Source: the human T2T-CHM13v2.0 reference genome, Homo sapiens
NCBI RefSeq assembly: GCF_009914755.1
Contig: NC_060946.1
DNA: 64,000 bases
Direction: 5' to 3' (one strand)
A program made the translations under genes and the position numbers. Under the pieces are notes generated by a model, which saw nothing but the letters and a program-made list of their open reading frames with translations, made no database searches and was not told the origin of the DNA. Below, piece by piece: positions 43,780 through 55,720 of the stretch (the stretch's first letter is position 1; every line of letters starts with the position of its first letter).

Positions 43780-46050
43780 CAGTGTTTGCGGTGGCACAGG
43801 AGATCCGGCGGTGGACCCAAATGCGCCCTGCCCTGGCAGGCAGGGAAGTAGACCGCTTCTGTCTCCAGCCCTCCCTGGAGGCGGACCTGGCCCCTGTTCT
43901 GGCTCTGGCTTGGGTCCCTCCACTCCAGGAGTCCCCAGCCCCCAGTTCTAACTCAGCACCCGCCCCAGAGGCTGCAAACCCACTGCCTATGCACAGAGGG
44001 AGACAGCACTCCCGTCAACGCCTCCGCATGCAGGACCTAATGTCCGACCCGGCTTTGATGCAGATCCCAGCTCGCTCCCGTGCCGGCTCCCGCTCCCGCT
44101 CCTCCCCCGCCGCCCCCGCCCGCGGTTCTTCTCTCGGCTTGGCGGCTGGGGTCCGACGAAGGGGCAGAGGCCACAACTCAGCGGCCCCGCGGGCAGCCCC
44201 GGCACGCGGCCCCACCCGCCCGCCTCCCAGGCTCGGGGTCTCGGCTCGTCCACGGCCACGAGGGTCGCCCGGAATGTCGCGTTCGCCGGTGCTGTGGGCC
44301 AAGCACTTTCGTGGGATGGAGGGACGATTGGGGAGCGCCCGAGGCTGCTGTGTTGGCGCCCGCCCCCGAGGGCTGGGAGTCAAGAGGTGGGAGTGGAGAG
44401 GGGAGGAGAGGGCAGAGCTCCTGGGCGCGCGGTCCTGTCCGGGTTCCGGCGAGGTTTGGGCCCCCAGCCGCCCGCCCTTCTCTGGGGCCCGGGGCTGAGC
44501 TGCTGATGGCGGGAGGGAGGACGGTGAGGGCAGCTCCTGGCGGCGGGCCTTCCCCGAGACCCCGAGGCCGCGTCCAAATAGGCGCTGTAAGCAACTCCAG
44601 GCGGTCCATCCTAAAACGAATTAGCAGGGTCAAGTAAAGCCCGGCTCCTCAGTGCTTCCCTTTGCACGGTGCGCGGCGGAGCCCGATTCTGCTCTCTCCA
44701 TACTCTGAGGCCTAGAGGAGGAGTCCCCCGTGCACCTCGAACCTCCGGCCGGTCTCTTCTGTGTGTATATTTGCCCCAAGTAGCCTGGGACCAATGCTGG
44801 GGGCGCAACTTGCCTGGGAAACACAGCCCAGCCCAAAGATCCTGGTATACTGTCTGCCCACCAGGGACGCACGGGAGGTAAAGGAGGGTGCGCGGCAACC
44901 CAGCGGTGCTCAGAATTCTGAGCAGTGGGGAGGTGCTGTGCCTTTATGGATAGGAGGGGAAGGGGGTCCTGCTGGGTGGGCGTGAGGGTGCCTGTCTGAA
45001 GGCTCCCCTGAGGGAGCCACGTGTGTGCAGGGGAGGCGGAACTGGGCAGACAGATGGGCGGCCACAATTCTCCAGCGGCAGCCTACCTGCGCTAGGGAAA
45101 AAAACTTCTGGAATTAGGGTTTGCTTCACCCACAACTACGAAGACTGGGGTGGGGGGCGAGTCTCAGCACACTGGACTCCCTTGGGGCAGGGCTGAGGTG
45201 CAGCCCAGACAGCAAAGGCCGCCGCGGGTCCTCGGTCGCATCCCTCCCTTCAGCCTCCTGCACTCAGCCAAGCCTCTGCTCCCCACCCCTTACCTACCCG
45301 AGTGGAAGCCAAGCTTCGGTTTTCCGGCCTGTAAAATGGTATCATAGCTCCCATCTCGCCCCCTGCGCTGGGAGAAATGGGCGTCTTGTCTTCGCTGCGC
45401 ATTGCATGCGGAGGAGCAGATGTCTCAGCCCAGGCCCTAGCCTTGCATCGAGCCCTGAGGAATCAGACCCTGCGACCCCTAGCCGCGCCTCACCTTCCTG
45501 ATCCACGCAAGGGAGCTCCCAGTCAGGCCTCCTATCGCGCGGGTGTGGAGGTGCGGCCGGCAGGGGGAGCGAGGAGGAAGGGAACCGCGGCCGGGCCAGG
45601 TGAGGGAGGGAGGAACACTTGCCGCGGGCCGTGCTGAGGCGCTGCGTTCGCGTGCGGAACCCGCGTGTGCCGGGCTAGGGCCATCCGACGGGCGCGCTCC
45701 CTCCGGGCTGCGGGAGGGCACGACGGGTGGGGTGGCGGCAGGTGAAGAGGAGTGTGGGCGGGTGGCGGGGTGGCGGGGCGGCGGAGCGCGGCGGGGCGGT
45801 GCCCTAGGCGGGAGGGAGGGTCGGAGGAGCCCTATCCTGCTGCGCGATGGAGGCGGTGGAGGCGGCGGCTCCGGCTGGAGGCTGGGACGGCCTCGCGCTT
45901 CGAGGGCTTCCGGGCCCCTTTAGCCGAGGGCTCCTGGAGGGTCCCAGCGTTGAGCAACGGGGTCCGGGGGTCCGAAATCAAGCGAGTGAGTATAGGCAGC
46001 CGGTGGGGTAGGGTCGGCCGACGGAGCCGGCTGGGTGGGGCCCCTCACCT
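43780..46050 (+). promoter_or_regulatory. TBX1: CpG-island cluster around the distal TBX1 promoter
   Basis: CpG-dense blocks 44000-44760 and 45480-46050. Confidence 0.75.
45557..45599 (+). other. TBX1: TBX1 non-coding first exon (distal promoter); 5' end approximate
   Basis: Strong donor CAG|GTGAGG at 45599/45600 inside a CpG island; sequence matches my recollection of the TBX1 mRNA 5' end joined to 48412. Confidence 0.65.
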
Positions 46051-48497
46051 CTTCCCGTCGCCCTTCTGGTTGACCAGGGTTTCCTCCACCCTGACGGCCT
46101 CTTCTCTGCTGTGGCAAGCTGGCCGCCCCTGCCTGCCTGCAGGTCCTGCTCAGGCACGAAGGGGTTAATGCGGGCTGGAAGGGCTCTGCTCCTCCCTACA
46201 AACCTCAGGCACAGAGGTCTGGGGACCTCTGGACCGATCCTTGAGCGGCTGACCCAGAGTCTCCAGGAGGCCCCAGGGTTTTTCACTTTCACTTCTCCCT
46301 CCTCAATGTTGGCCTCACCCACAGGCCCCACATCTGGCCAGTGCCCTGAGGTGTGTGCAGATGTACACAGGACACAAGCTTGGGCATACCCTCAGGCTGG
46401 GGCACATGCAGGAGCCCCACCCCCATGCCCCCACCGACTGGCCCAGGCCTCTCTGGGTGCAGACTGCCAACACAGGCACGTCTCCTGCAACACTACCAAA
46501 TCTGCGGCCACCAGCATCCCTACCACCCGCCTCCACGGGACTGTCCTTCCTGCAGGAGCAGCTCCTGGGGACAATGGCTGGTCCTGCTCAGAGAGGAAGG
46601 AAAGGGGCCTGGAACCAGCTGGTCCATCCCCACACAGCACTCCTCACTGGACTTGTCCCTGGGTCCCCTCAGTGACACTGAGAGACATAAGTCATTGTCA
46701 CTGTCATGGCCCAGAATGACTACTCAGGGCAAGAAAAATGCACTAAGGACAGCTTCCCTTTTCTGACATGGCCCACAAAGCTCCAGCTGCAGGCGGCAGG
46801 GGTTGTGGGGGGCAGGACATGAGGCACCCCATACAGGCAGCAACACACACCACATCCCAGACAGGCAGCACTATTCGTATACTCACCCACTGCGGCCCTG
46901 GACTCACATGCGTTCCTGAACCTCAGGCCCAGGGCCAGCCTCCCCACTGGCGCCCAGCCCCCCAGCCCGTTACTGGGCCTTCCCAGTTCCCAGCCAGCAT
47001 CCTCTCCAGCCCAGGGTCTGAGGTCCTGAGATCCTAAAAACCCTGGGAGAGGTTGCCTGCCTCCCACTCCCATCCTGAGCATGCACAAGCGAAGGCTGCA
47101 ATGAGGTTGTATACAGAGAGGCCTTGCAAACAGTGGCCCTGACCACCAGCACCAGGGAGGCTCCAGCAAGGCACAGAGGCTCCAGCAAGGCACAGAGGCA
47201 CAGAGCTGAGGTTGACACCCAGCTGGAGAGGCCCTGTACAGGAAAGCCATGGGTGCGCTGAACTGGTTAGAGGAGACCCTGGAGACAGTAGGTGGGGAAA
47301 CGCACAGGCCAAGTCAGGCCTTGGCGTCTGGGATGCCTGGGCCTAGAAACCAGGCAGAGCGGCGGGCCTCGGCCTCACTCTGCCCAGCCTGGTCGGGCCA
47401 TAGAGCTTCTCCCGGCAGGCAGGCTGGCTGCTGGGTGCCGGGGGGCAGCATACGACCCAGTGGCCTGAAGTTCTCCAACATGTCCTCGTGTCCTCGGCTC
47501 CCTCGGCTGGCCAGGCTCCGCCCCCGGCCCTCCCTGCGCCCGGCCGGTGCGCAGGGAGGTCGGAGGAGCGGGCACTGCCCACCCTCCGGATGTATAAGCG
47601 TCCTGGCCAGAGGCGGGCGGTGCGCGCAAGTGCGCGTGACGCTCGGGCTCGCGGGCTGCGCAGCCTGGGCAGCGTCCCTCTGCTGGGGTCTCCAGCGACG
47701 ATAGTGAGCCAACTTCAGGGGGCTGTTGGGCATTTACTGGGCTGGGTCCTGTCCTGCTGCGCCAAGGAACAGAGGACGCTGCGGCCCTGGGGCTCCTGTC
47801 AGTGGCCGGTGCGAGAGCCCAAGCTGCCCTCTCCTCACCCAGGTGCAGGGGCAGCCAGGGAGGAGGTGGAGGCGGGAGGGGCCAAGGGCAGGGGCAGGGC
47901 TGGGCTCCGGCAGCCACTCGCTGCTTCATGGGTGCCCTGCCACCTCGGGCTAGGGCTGGGTGCTGCTGGCATAGACACCTCTCCTCGGGGGGCTGTAGAA
48001 GCTGACGGTGGCTTCGCTGCACAGAGAAAGGCCGTGCCTTGGCAGGAGCAACGGGATGTTCAAGGGGCGTTGGTCATGGAGGTCCCTGGGAATGGAGGAA
48101 GGGGGCAGGGAGCTTGGAAAGCAAGAGGGCCCTGCACTTCCAGGGTGCTCCACCCGTCTGGGCCCCTCGGCTGCTACCAGCCCCAAGTGGGGGGCCCATG
48201 ACGCCATAATCCTCTGGGCCAGGGGCCCCTGGCTGTGAGTGGCACCACAGGCCCCCGCCCCCGGACTCCGTGGGCTGGGCTGGGCTGGGCGCGGTGCGGC
48301 TGGGCACACGCAGTCGGAGGCGGCGCCGGCCAGGCCGCCGGGCGCCTATGGACGCGCGGAGCCCGCTGTCTCCCCGAGCCAGTGCGTTCAGCATCGCCTC
48401 TCTGGTTGCAGCCGAGGCGGCGGAGCGCACCGCCCACCAGGGCTCAGGGTCCTCCGACCGGGTGAAGCTTCGCTGGCTGCCAGGATCCCCGGCAGGG

Positions 48498-48531
48498 ATG
48501 CACTTCAGCACCGTCACCAGGGACATGGAAG
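48498..48531 (+). CDS. TBX1: TBX1 alternative coding start (MHFSTVTRDME) in exon 48412-48531; 495-aa isoform C
   Basis: Acceptor TTGCAG|C at 48411/48412, donor G|GTGAGC; phase 1 joins the internal acceptor at 49758 (G+CC=Ala, AFTASSL); 34+376+1078=1488 nt. Confidence 0.92.
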
Positions 48532-48779
48532 GTGAGCCTCCAGGCCGTGTCTACACTGGCCCGCCCGCCAGACCCCCTGCCTCAGCTGCTGTGGGGCCCG
48601 GGTGCAAAGTAGGTGGAGGCAGCTCTTGGTAGCGTGGGCTCCAGGCTTCTGGCTGCGATTCTGGGGCAGAGAGGAAGAGCCGGCATCCCGCCCACAGCCT
48701 GTCCCCTCACCAGCCTGGGGGCCCAGCTTGGAGATGGGCACTCAGGTATACACAGGCCCGGAAGAGGGCGAGTGAGGCT

Positions 48780-55720
<6,941 letters not shown>

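What the first reader, a model, noticed from the sequence alone, without database searches (positions are those of the whole stretch)
48348..48531. Hidden in-frame N-terminal extension of TBX1 carrying an eh1 (Groucho/TLE) repressor motif
Seen: an ATG at 48348 (GCCTATGG) lies exactly 150 nt upstream of, and in frame with, the MHFSTV start. It reads MDARSPLSPRASAFSIASLVAAEAAERTAHQGSGSSDRVKLRWLPGSPAG-MHFSTVTRDME with no stop, predicting a 545-aa protein. Established: FSIxxL/I is the eh1 motif, and the sister Tbx1-subfamily repressors begin with near-identical text (recalled: TBX20 LSSRANAFSIAALM; TBX15/18/22 LSxxAHAFSVEAL). The commonly annotated TBX1 N-termini lack it. Seen: the eh1 codons (48387-48407) double as the pyrimidine tract of the acceptor at 48411/48412, so transcripts from the distal exon splice the motif away, while transcripts starting in the local CpG island (47300-48340) keep it. 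Inference: promoter choice toggles a TLE-recruiting repressor isoform of the main DiGeorge gene, and variants filed as intronic or 5'UTR here would be coding. It may exist as a predicted gene model; I know of no functional characterisation.
Basis: partly seen in the sequence, partly recalled or inferred. Interest (0 to 1): 0.9.

Follow-up and report, generated by a model that had tools for sequence, protein, structure and literature searches.

The report
Hidden ancestral start of TBX1 protein
Just upstream of the annotated start of the DiGeorge-syndrome gene TBX1 lies an intact, unannotated 50-codon extension that is conserved from amphioxus to human and carries the same co-repressor docking motif as TBX1's sister genes, a motif the literature says TBX1 lacks.

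Summary
ATG 48348 opens 50 stop-free codons in frame with the annotated MHFSTV start at 48498. None of the 7 RefSeq TBX1 mRNAs covers 48348-48411.

This is not a chance ORF. The same N-terminus (M-D/E-x-x-SPLSP-K/R-A-N/S-AFSIASL-I/V) begins 77 of the 148 TBX1 protein clusters I retrieved. They span sharks, coelacanth, ray-finned fish, amphibians, reptiles, birds, a marsupial, 14 placental clusters and amphioxus Tbx1/10.

The motif and its flanks match the eh1 motifs I read from the human TBX20, TBX15, TBX18 and TBX22 genes. In TBX20, the aligned F18/S19 are required for TLE binding.

The human exon-2 acceptor (AG 48410-48411) sits one codon after the motif. In 7 of 10 models from other species with a different upstream exon, the join falls at the same codon.

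Papers I read state that TBX1 lacks this motif, and 9 literature searches found no description of it.

Not shown here: transcription or translation of the extension in human, or TLE binding.

Verdict: a real, ancestral, probably functional eh1-bearing TBX1 N-terminus that is missing from human annotation.

The parts
48201..48347 (+). ATG-free, CpG-rich stretch immediately upstream of the conserved start codon. Inferred core promoter / 5'UTR of an eh1-keeping transcript. Contains a GC box (CCCCGCCCC, 48253-48261) and (TGGGC)4 at 48271-48290.
   Evidence: No ATG between 48201 and 48347; CpG o/e 0.76-0.88 in 48200-48499. GC box and repeat. No TSS is annotated here, so the promoter role is inference.
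48207..48209 (+). In-frame TAA that closes the frame upstream. It ends a 3-codon uORF from ATG 48198.
48348..48350 (+). Conserved ancestral start codon (Met1 of the extension). Context C at -3, G at +4.
   Evidence: Met sits exactly 12 residues before A13 in 74 of 77 orthologue clusters.
48348..48497 (+). 50-codon unannotated in-frame N-terminal extension of TBX1 (MDARSPLSPRASAFSIASLVAAEAAERTAHQGSGSSDRVKLRWLPGSPAG).
   Evidence: Orthologous extensions. All 14 placental clusters have exactly 50 residues before MHFSTV.
48360..48407 (+). Conserved block S5-V20 (SPLSPRASAFSIASLV) holding the eh1-like motif. Core F14-V20 is 48387-48407.
   Evidence: A11, A13, F14, A17 and L19 are invariant in 77 of 77 clusters; S15 in 73, I16 in 75. 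Matches human TBX20/15/18/22 eh1 context. The pattern is unique in the window and absent from 100 simulations.
48410..48411 (+). AG of the exon-2 acceptor, falling in codons 21/22 (GCA G|CC), one codon after the motif. Exon 2 begins at 48412.
   Evidence: 5 of 7 RefSeq mRNAs use it. 7 of 10 models from other species with a different upstream exon join at codon 22. Residue 22 is A, V or G in 77 of 77 clusters, all of which have G-first codons.
48412..48497 (+). Variable linker of the extension. Annotated as the 5'UTR part of exon 2.
   Evidence: Only 6 of 29 columns are invariant among 15 placental sequences, against 18 of 21 for residues 1-21.
48498..48531 (+). Annotated start of TBX1A/B/C (MHFSTVTRDME plus the first base of the next codon). 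In the long form this is an internal Met.
   Evidence: 11 of 11 columns invariant in placentals. Amphioxus has MQYPSIPRDME here.
48532..48533 (+). GT donor of exon 2 (TGGAAG|GTGAGC), spliced to 49758.
49697..50133 (+). Exon 3. The MANE Select transcript starts at 49631 with ATG 49697 ([19 protein letters not shown]...). Exon-2 transcripts enter at acceptor 49758 (ME|AFTASS...).

Best explanation
Window 48348-48497 is the human copy of the ancestral chordate Tbx1/10 N-terminus. It holds a conserved start codon, an eh1 (Engrailed-homology-1) motif homologous to those of TBX20, TBX15, TBX18 and TBX22, and a fast-evolving linker that leads into the conserved MHFSTVTRDME block.

The gene appears to have three 5' configurations:
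1. A transcript starting just upstream of 48348 would translate the eh1-bearing long form (545 aa with the TBX1C 3' end).
2. Transcripts from distal non-coding exons (45557-45599 or 47631-47842) splice into an acceptor one codon after the motif. This removes the start codon and the eh1, so translation begins at the internal Met 48498.
3. A promoter in intron 2 gives the MANE form, which starts at 49697.

The most likely function of the motif is direct recruitment of Groucho/TLE co-repressors, as in the paralogues. That would make the long form an intrinsic repressor, while the annotated forms lack that capacity.

Shown here: the ORF, its conservation, its homology to paralogue eh1 motifs, and the position and use of the acceptor. 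Inferred: the proximal start site in human, translation from 48348, TLE binding, and the regulatory switch.
For: 1. ORF and frame.

2. Orthologues. 77 of the 148 TBX1 clusters retrieved in three protein searches carry the extension. They include:
- 5 shark/ray clusters, coelacanth, bichirs, sturgeon/paddlefish, gars and many teleosts (one cluster of 375 members, one of 198);
- frogs, newts, turtles, alligator and lizards;
- birds (clusters of 269 and 215 members; Gallus isoform X3);
- a marsupial and 14 placental clusters (a primate cluster of 11 members, a rodent cluster of 34).
By my hand sum of the member_sequences columns, this is roughly 1,500 database sequences.

3. Amphioxus P0148 starts MEANSPLSPKANAFSIASLISASEQ. 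Its T-box exons match human TBX1/TBX10 best: 87% and 86%, against 54-63% for TBX15/18/20/22.

4. Among 15 placental sequences, residues 1-21 (unannotated in human) are invariant at 18 of 21 columns. That is close to the annotated CDS (11 of 11) and unlike the linker (6 of 29). There are no indels in the 50 codons.

5. Paralogue homology was read from the human genome. A coelacanth TBX1 N-terminus aligns to the human TBX20 first exon over 34 residues at 50% identity (E = 4e-4 in a 45-kb database).

6. In TBX20 the aligned F18/S19 are needed for TLE binding, and their mutation is embryonic lethal in mice (passages of PMC10629681). In C. elegans MLS-1, changing FSI to ASA abolishes UNC-37/Groucho binding (passages of PMC3154951).

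7. Acceptor. 5 of 7 RefSeq mRNAs use 48412. 7 of 10 models with a different upstream exon join at codon 22: P0094, P0097, P0053, P0034, P0030, P0111 and P0064. In P0097 and P0030, residue 22 changes to S and T, as expected if only the first base of the codon comes from the upstream exon.

8. A mechanistic gap exists in the literature. Tbx1 represses Mef2c with histone deacetylation in mesoderm where Ripply3 is not expressed, and the authors invoke unknown intermediates (passages of PMC6176997).
Against: - None of the 7 human RefSeq transcripts covers 48348-48411, and none starts between 47631 and 49631.
- No retrieved cluster with the extension is labelled human. I could not see the members of the primate cluster P0007.
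- The start context has C at -3.
- The orthologue proteins are nearly all computational models, and models are only made where the frame is open. Species with a broken frame would therefore be invisible.
- The eh1 codons also serve as a 3' splice-site region, and the DNA just upstream of the ATG also looks conserved in placentals: the upstream translation is similar in the bat and kangaroo-rat models. Part of the mammalian conservation could therefore be non-coding.
- I had no vertebrate DNA and could not test for a synonymous-site signature.
- The junction evidence mixes NCBI Gnomon, Ensembl-derived and ab initio models. 3 of the 10 models do not fit: P0025 and P0028 are unclear, and P0043 has a degenerate motif.
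- No cyclostome, tunicate or non-chordate hit was found, although the word-based search is insensitive here.
- Human TBX10 shows no such motif in 9 kb.
- TLE binding was not tested.
Confidence: 0.68

Rival explanations
1. Ancestral relic in human. The eh1 N-terminus is real in other vertebrates, but mammals (or at least humans) no longer make the long form. On this view the human sequence is kept intact because the same bases serve as the branch/pyrimidine region of the exon-2 acceptor and as promoter or 5'UTR DNA.
For: 0 of 7 human RefSeq mRNAs include it, and MANE Select starts at 49631. The start context has C at -3. The motif codons are the pyrimidine tract. Sequence upstream of the ATG also looks conserved among placental models. 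The gibbon representative differs from human at 4 of 50 residues, two of them next to the motif.
Against: 18 of 21 residues upstream of the acceptor are invariant across primates, rodents, carnivores, bats and a pangolin. This includes the start codon and residues 1-12, which lie 28-64 nt from the AG, beyond a typical pyrimidine tract. There are no frame-breaking indels in 150 nt, although the linker changes freely. NCBI pipelines predict the long form in primates (11-member cluster) and rodents (34-member cluster). The fox model reads the stretch just upstream of the ATG in a different frame from human, bat and kangaroo rat. This suggests indels are tolerated before the ATG but not after it.
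Confidence: 0.2
2. The extension is translated, but the motif does not work by binding TLE. It could be, for example, a degron, a localisation signal or a different partner site.
For: No binding data exist. Residues at positions 4-5 of the core (A-S) differ from TBX15/18/22 (E-A). Pfam has no model for the segment and no solved structure matches it.
Against: The core and flanks are nearly identical to TBX20: AFSIASL against AFSIAAL, with the same LSx[RK]A lead-in. In TBX20, the F and S at the aligned positions are required for TLE binding.
Confidence: 0.08
3. A chance open frame and chance motif in GC-rich DNA.
For: GC-rich DNA gives long ORFs on both strands here. A loose, recalled eh1 regex matches 9 times in the window, against 6.8 expected.
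Against: The extended pattern is unique in the window and absent from 100 simulations. The same N-terminus heads 77 orthologue clusters back to amphioxus.
Confidence: 0.01

Closest known systems
TBX20 N-terminal eh1 motif (binds TLE; F18/S19)
   Same: It sits near the N-terminus, upstream of the T-box, in the first coding exon. The sequence is almost the same: human TBX20 LSSRANAFSIAALM against TBX1 extension LSPRASAFSIASLV. TBX1 F14/S15 align with TBX20 F18/S19, which are needed for TLE binding.
   Different: TBX20's motif is in the annotated protein and has been tested in vivo. TBX1's is unannotated in human, untested, and can be removed by an acceptor placed right after it.
TBX15 / TBX18 / TBX22 eh1 motifs
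   Same: They share the subfamily and the lead-in (LSx[RK]AxAFS[IV]xxL), as read from the human genome. Papers report TLE3 binding for Tbx15/18 (passages).
   Different: Their core is FSVEAL rather than FSIASL, and they are less similar to TBX1 than TBX20 is. In local tblastn the E-values were 0.12-6, against 4e-4 for TBX20.
C. elegans MLS-1 (Tbx1-subfamily) eh1
   Same: An N-terminal FSI core, needed for Groucho/UNC-37 binding and for function (passages of PMC3154951).
   Different: The paper says MLS-1 is closest to Tbx15/18/22, not to Tbx1. I did not compare the sequences here.
Ripply3-mediated recruitment of Groucho/TLE to TBX1
   Same: It also links TBX1 to TLE-type repression (passages).
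   Different: That route is indirect: an adaptor protein carries the TLE-binding motif, and it is reported as restricted to pharyngeal endoderm in mouse. An eh1 within TBX1 itself would be a direct route that needs no adaptor.
Annotated human TBX1 isoforms (A/B/C, starting MHFSTV; MANE Select, starting MISAVSS)
   Same: The same gene, T-box and downstream exons. The long form contains the whole A/B/C protein.
   Different: They lack residues 1-50. MANE has a different first 20 residues, encoded by the 5' extension of exon 3.

Membership tests
eh1 (Engrailed-homology-1) Groucho/TLE-binding motif of Tbx1-subfamily T-box proteins | Hydrophobic core F-S-I/V-x-x-L-hydrophobic, as in the paralogues | tested here: met
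   FSIASLV at 48387-48407. Human TBX20 has FSIAALM; TBX15/18/22 have FSVEALI or FSVEALV. It also fits the general eh1 regex I recalled from memory and used.
eh1 (Engrailed-homology-1) Groucho/TLE-binding motif of Tbx1-subfamily T-box proteins | Subfamily-specific lead-in LSx[RK]AxA before the core | tested here: met
   LSPRASA in TBX1, against LSSRANA, LSSRAHA, LSLKAHA and LSSRARA in the paralogues. The pattern is unique in the window and absent from 100 simulations.
eh1 (Engrailed-homology-1) Groucho/TLE-binding motif of Tbx1-subfamily T-box proteins | Position near the N-terminus, upstream of the T-box | tested here: met
   F14 in the extension, against F18 in TBX20. The T-box starts at residue 150 in the rodent long form P0125.
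eh1 (Engrailed-homology-1) Groucho/TLE-binding motif of Tbx1-subfamily T-box proteins | Conservation of the motif among orthologues | tested here: met
   F14, A13, A17 and L19 are invariant in 77 of 77 clusters, amphioxus to human.
eh1 (Engrailed-homology-1) Groucho/TLE-binding motif of Tbx1-subfamily T-box proteins | Physical binding to the WD40 domain of Groucho/TLE | not testable with these tools
   The two-protein predictor is off and there is no bench. No paper reporting it was found.
eh1 (Engrailed-homology-1) Groucho/TLE-binding motif of Tbx1-subfamily T-box proteins | Motif-dependent transcriptional repression | not testable with these tools
   Needs reporter or in vivo assays.
Translated N-terminal extension of a human protein | In-frame upstream ATG with no intervening stop | tested here: met
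Translated N-terminal extension of a human protein | A human transcript that contains the upstream ATG as its first AUG | tested here: not met
   0 of 7 RefSeq mRNAs cover 48348-48411. This tests the annotation only, since reads and CAGE are not available here. Any start in 48201-48347 would make 48348 the first AUG.
Translated N-terminal extension of a human protein | Protein-level conservation of the extension in other species | tested here: met
Translated N-terminal extension of a human protein | Codon-level (synonymous-site) signature of coding selection | not testable with these tools
Translated N-terminal extension of a human protein | Ribosome footprints or peptides | not testable with these tools
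   No such data here. The string FSIASL occurs in 0 papers of the held library.
Domain toggled by alternative 5' exon / internal 3' splice site | An acceptor inside the long ORF that is used by transcripts from upstream exons | tested here: met
   5 of 7 RefSeq mRNAs join 45599, 47808 or 47842 to 48412.
Domain toggled by alternative 5' exon / internal 3' splice site | The same junction used in other lineages | tested here: inconclusive
   7 of 10 protein models with a different upstream exon join at codon 22 (shark, basking shark, a teleost, a caecilian, a frog, wild yak, a langur). 3 of 10 do not fit. These are protein models of mixed origin, and no transcript or DNA was seen.

The most novel reading that the evidence does not exclude
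TBX1 is natively a two-mode factor. Its ancestral, chordate-wide N-terminus carries a TLE-docking eh1 motif. An equally old 3' splice site, placed exactly at the end of that motif, lets 5'-end choice switch the protein between an intrinsic repressor and the eh1-less forms on which essentially all TBX1 biochemistry has been done. The long form would supply the missing corepressor link for TBX1-dependent repression in pharyngeal mesoderm. It would also make chr22:20136348-20136497 (T2T-CHM13) coding sequence of the main 22q11.2 deletion-syndrome gene.
Probability: 0.4. Interest if true: 0.88.

Novelty: new member of a known kind. Interest (0 to 1): 0.78.

Why it matters
TBX1 is the principal dosage-sensitive gene of 22q11.2 deletion syndrome, and it both activates and represses targets.

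Papers I read state that TBX1 has no eh1 or Groucho-interaction domain: Copley 2005 (PMC1310626) and Pane et al. 2018 (PMC6176997, citing Farin 2007). Its repression is attributed to the adaptor Ripply3 or to unknown intermediates.

If the conserved long form is made, four things follow:
1. TBX1 joins TBX15/18/20/22 as a direct TLE client, and the eh1 becomes an ancestral feature of the whole Tbx1 subfamily.
2. Expression constructs, interaction screens and reporter assays built on the annotated cDNAs have missed this activity.
3. Variants in 48348-48497, now filed as intronic or 5'UTR, would be coding, and variants in the motif would also touch the exon-2 acceptor.
4. The question of how TBX1 represses becomes directly testable with one point mutant, copying the published Tbx20 F18L/S19I design.

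Tried and rejected
- A six-frame search of the human genome with the 50-residue extension found only the locus itself and one noise hit. The paralogue motifs are too short for that tool, so I fetched the paralogue 5' ends by coordinate instead.
- Pfam gave no family for the 61-residue peptide. The PDB sequence search gave only two chance hits, E = 0.18 and 0.76.
- Human TBX10 has no eh1-like motif by regex or by local tblastn with six TBX1 N-termini. I scanned 9 kb: about 7 kb at the 5' end of the gene plus 2 kb upstream.
- No YTNAY branch-point-like motif lies in 48340-48400. I draw no conclusion from this.
- I considered intron retention from the 47631 transcripts as the source of the long form and judged it unlikely to be translated, because 5 ATGs precede 48348.
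- I considered a chance ORF and rejected it.
- I did not run structure prediction or the Atlas search. A short disordered motif would give nothing decisive, and the two-protein predictor is off.

Literature searches. Searches returned listings; one search returned an error. No listed paper describes an eh1 in TBX1 or a TBX1-TLE contact other than through Ripply3. For the listed papers I saw only titles and abstract starts, except for these:
- PMC1310626, PMC3154951, PMC6176997, PMC10629681, PMC6071992 and PMC4890940: I read the passages returned by 'find'.
- PMC13308096: 'find' returned 0 whole-word occurrences of TBX1.
- Farin 2007, Kaltenbrun 2013 and Okubo 2011: I did not see these; they are cited only as quoted in those passages.

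Supplements are closed. Copley's Additional File 1 (per-protein eh1 scores) may bear on how TBX1 scored, but it used the annotated proteins. Subscription-journal papers are outside the library.

The protein searches list at most 120 clusters, require several shared 5-residue words and omit sample-only proteins: 2900, 21 and 9 candidates were left out. The absence of cyclostome, tunicate or protostome hits therefore means little.
Full report
**What is in the sequence**

The window is chr22:20088001-20152000 of T2T-CHM13. An ATG sits at window 48348-48350. It opens a frame that runs without a stop through the annotated TBX1A/B/C start codon at 48498, as far as the exon-2 donor at 48531/48532.

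The frame is open from 48210 and is closed upstream by TAA 48207-48209. No other ATG lies between 48201 and 48347. The TBX1C coding sequence is 1488 nt including the stop, so adding 150 nt gives the predicted 545 residues.

**Human annotation**

The RefSeq table lists 7 TBX1 mRNAs.
- Three curated mRNAs start at 45557 and splice 45599->48412.
- Two Gnomon models start at 47631 and splice 47842 or 47808 ->48412.
- MANE Select NM_001379200 and one Gnomon model start at 49631 and use ATG 49697 ([19 protein letters not shown]...).

None of the 7 covers 48348-48411. For the annotation, the first 64 nt of the extension are intron and the remaining 86 nt are 5'UTR.

The acceptor AG is 48410-48411, which falls in codons 21/22 (GCA G|CC), one codon after the FSIASLV core at 48387-48407. 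Of the 20 nt before the AG, 13 are pyrimidines.

**Is it more than chance?**

A loose eh1 regex, which I recalled from memory, matches 9 times in the six-frame translation of the window, against 6.8 expected. It therefore proves nothing on its own. The extended pattern shared by the paralogues, LS.[RK]A.AFS[IV].[AS]L, occurs once, at this site, and in none of 100 first-order Markov simulations of the window.

**Paralogues, read from the human genome rather than recalled**

I fetched 9 kb at the 5' end of each gene. The first coding exons read:
- TBX20: ...PQLSSRANAFSIAALMSS
- TBX15: ...ALSSRAHAFSVEALIGS
- TBX18: ...MLSLKAHAFSVEALIGA
- TBX22: MALSSRARAFSVEALVGR

The TBX1 extension has PLSPRASAFSIASLVAA. 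F14/S15 of the extension align with F18/S19 of TBX20. In passages of PMC10629681, substitution of those two residues disrupts the Tbx20-TLE interaction and is embryonic lethal in homozygous mice. In C. elegans MLS-1, changing FSI to ASA abolishes binding to Groucho/UNC-37 (passages of PMC3154951).

Human TBX10 shows no such motif in the 9 kb scanned.

**Orthologues**

The length filter prevents a short peptide from finding full-length proteins. I therefore queried with the 296-codon stop-free frame around exon 3 (49313-50200), scoring only the exon-3 part.

Of the 120 TBX1 clusters listed, 49 begin with the same extension. Two further searches used the N-terminal region of a gibbon model (P0007) and a shark model (P0083). 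They added 7 and 21 clusters.

In total, 77 of 148 stored clusters carry the extension:
- 5 shark or ray clusters, coelacanth, bichirs, sturgeon and paddlefish, gars, and many teleosts (clusters of 375, 198 and 77 members);
- frogs and newts, turtles (one cluster of 75 members), alligator and lizards;
- birds (clusters of 269 and 215 members; Gallus isoform X3);
- a marsupial (16 members);
- 14 placental clusters (primates 11 members, rodents 34 members, carnivores, bats, a pangolin).

My hand sum of the member columns gives roughly 1,500 database sequences.

At that stage 127 clusters were stored. Besides the 56 with the extension, 20 start at MH[FY]S, 22 at MISA, 10 have some other upstream sequence, and 19 are fragments or unclassified.

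**Amphioxus**

The weakest hit (E = 0.03) is Branchiostoma belcheri 'TBX1-like isoform X1' (P0148). It starts MEANSPLSPKANAFSIASLISASEQ and has MQYPSIPRDME where vertebrates have MH[FY]STVTR[DE]ME.

Searched against the human genome, its T-box exons match TBX1 and TBX10 best. For residues 194-255 the identities are 87% and 86%, against 54-63% for TBX15/18/20/22. The other exons give the same ranking. It is therefore a Tbx1/10 orthologue, and the eh1 N-terminus predates vertebrates.

No cyclostome, tunicate or non-chordate hit appeared. However, the word-based candidate step is insensitive for a 20-residue block, and sample-only proteins were excluded.

**Pattern of conservation**

Across the 77 clusters:
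- A11, A13, F14, A17 and L19 are invariant.
- S8 is kept in 75, I16 in 75, P6 and L7 in 74 each, S15 in 73 and P9 in 72.
- Met lies exactly 12 residues before A13 in 74 of 77; the other three have small insertions.

Among 15 placental sequences (human plus 14 clusters), the three segments differ sharply:

| Segment | Status in human annotation | Invariant columns |
|---|---|---|
| Residues 1-21 | upstream of the acceptor, unannotated | 18 of 21 |
| Residues 22-50 | 5'UTR of exon 2 | 6 of 29 |
| Residues 51-61 | annotated CDS | 11 of 11 |

All 15 sequences have exactly 50 residues before MHFSTV. The part of the extension that human annotation treats as intron is thus as constrained as the annotated coding part, and far more constrained than the part treated as exon.

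A minor point concerns the stretch before the ATG. The fox model (P0121) reads it in a different frame from human, bat and kangaroo rat. This suggests that a frame-shifting indel is tolerated before the ATG but not after it.

**The acceptor looks old**

Ten models have the linker and the MH[FY]S block but a different sequence in front. In seven of them the shared sequence starts at residue 22 or 23:
- Scyliorhinus X6 (P0094)
- Cetorhinus X3 (P0097)
- Aldrovandia (P0053)
- Geotrypetes X2 (P0034)
- Discoglossus (P0030)
- Bos mutus (P0111)
- a langur (P0064)

In P0097 residue 22 is S, and in P0030 it is T, where the eh1 forms have A. That is the expected result if the junction lies after the first base of codon 22 (x|CN), as in human G|CC.

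Two other observations fit an N-C-A G-N-N arrangement. Residue 22 is A, V or G in 77 of 77 eh1 clusters, and all of these have G-first codons. Residue 21 is S, A or T in 74 of 77. I could not check this at the DNA level.

Three of the ten models do not fit: P0025 and P0028 are unclear, and P0043 carries a degenerate motif. The models come from pipelines of unequal quality. I therefore rate the claim of an ancient shared acceptor as suggestive, not shown.

**What a long-form transcript would need in human**

A start site in 48201-48347 would make 48348 the first AUG. That stretch and the start of the ORF form a local CpG-rich patch (o/e 0.76-0.88). It contains a GC box at 48253-48261 and (TGGGC)4 at 48271-48290. 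No start site is annotated there.

Retaining the intron in the 47631 transcripts would place 5 ATGs ahead of 48348. The start context is C at -3 and G at +4.

Whether the long form is made in human is the main open point. I could not see whether any member of the primate cluster P0007 is human.

**Most likely mechanism**

- Shown: the ORF, its conservation, its homology to functional eh1 motifs, and the acceptor placed directly after it and used by most annotated human mRNAs.
- Inferred: a proximal start site yields a long TBX1 that recruits Groucho/TLE directly. Distal exons splice past the start codon and motif, so that the conserved internal Met 48498 initiates an eh1-less protein. The intron-2 promoter gives the MANE form.

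I put about 0.9 on 'conserved coding N-terminus with a paralogue-type eh1 motif', about 0.6 on expression in human or mouse, and about 0.7 on TLE binding if it is expressed.

**Comparison with the literature**

- Copley 2005 (passages) found eh1 motifs in TBX18, TBX20 and TBX22. [quoted passage not shown]
- Pane et al. [quoted passage not shown] They note that Ripply3 is restricted to pharyngeal endoderm in mouse, and they leave the intermediates of Tbx1-dependent histone deacetylation open.
- Nine searches of the held library ([error], 20, 21, 28, 32, 33, 49) turned up no description of a TBX1 eh1.

The feature is thus present in hundreds of automatic gene models. It is absent from human RefSeq and, as far as I could search, from the literature. 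Subscription journals and supplements were not searchable.

**Verdict**

This is a new member of a known kind: an eh1-bearing T-box factor, with a possibly ancient splice switch. It concerns a major disease gene and is directly testable.

Noticed in passing
window 49697-49757 (5' extension of exon 3): The block [14 protein letters not shown], which forms the N-terminus of MANE Select, is nearly invariant from sharks to human. In many bird, fish, frog and lizard models it is joined directly after ...TR[DE]ME, giving proteins with both the eh1 and this block. Human has TCCG rather than an AG at the corresponding spot (ATGATCTCCGCC). The human eh1 form could therefore only join at 49758 and would lack the block. 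The block's function is unknown.
   Followed up: partly
L005 (G000 chr11:67629443-67638442, TBX10 5' part plus 2 kb upstream): TBX10, the closest paralogue of TBX1, shows no eh1-like motif by regex or by tblastn with six TBX1 N-termini. Since amphioxus Tbx1/10 has the motif, TBX10 seems to have lost it.
   Followed up: partly
window 48498-48530: The MHFSTVTRDME block, including its Met, is conserved across jawed vertebrates, and amphioxus has MQYPSIPRDME. This fits long-standing use of the Met as an alternative start. The block's function is unknown.
   Followed up: no
window 48800-49300 (intron 2): A sharp drop to GC 0.34, with strong A and G excess on the + strand and several short purine-rich tandem repeats, sits between two GC-rich blocks. 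It is not listed as a masked repeat.
   Followed up: no
window 49456-49564: G-rich tandem repeats (units GGGGAG and GGGGC, about 7 copies each) lie 70-175 nt upstream of the MANE transcription start at 49631. They may be prone to forming G-quadruplexes.
   Followed up: no
window 47488-48201 (+): A 237-codon GC-rich ORF overlaps the Gnomon first exon (47631-47842). A langur 'hypothetical protein' (P0064) translates it and joins it to the TBX1 linker. This is probably an annotation artefact, not a real N-terminus.
   Followed up: partly
window 48270-48347: The translation of the stretch just upstream of the ATG (..RLG.RSRRRRRPGR.AP) is nearly the same in the human, bat (P0082) and kangaroo-rat (P0123) models, so the DNA upstream of the ATG is also conserved in placentals. 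The fox model (P0121) reads it in another frame.
   Followed up: partly
G000 chr15:39475311-39475886: The amphioxus Tbx1/10 protein matches a whole T-box (residues 132-325, 51% identity) in one uninterrupted 371-codon open frame on chr15. This is a single-exon T-box. I did not identify the gene.
   Followed up: no
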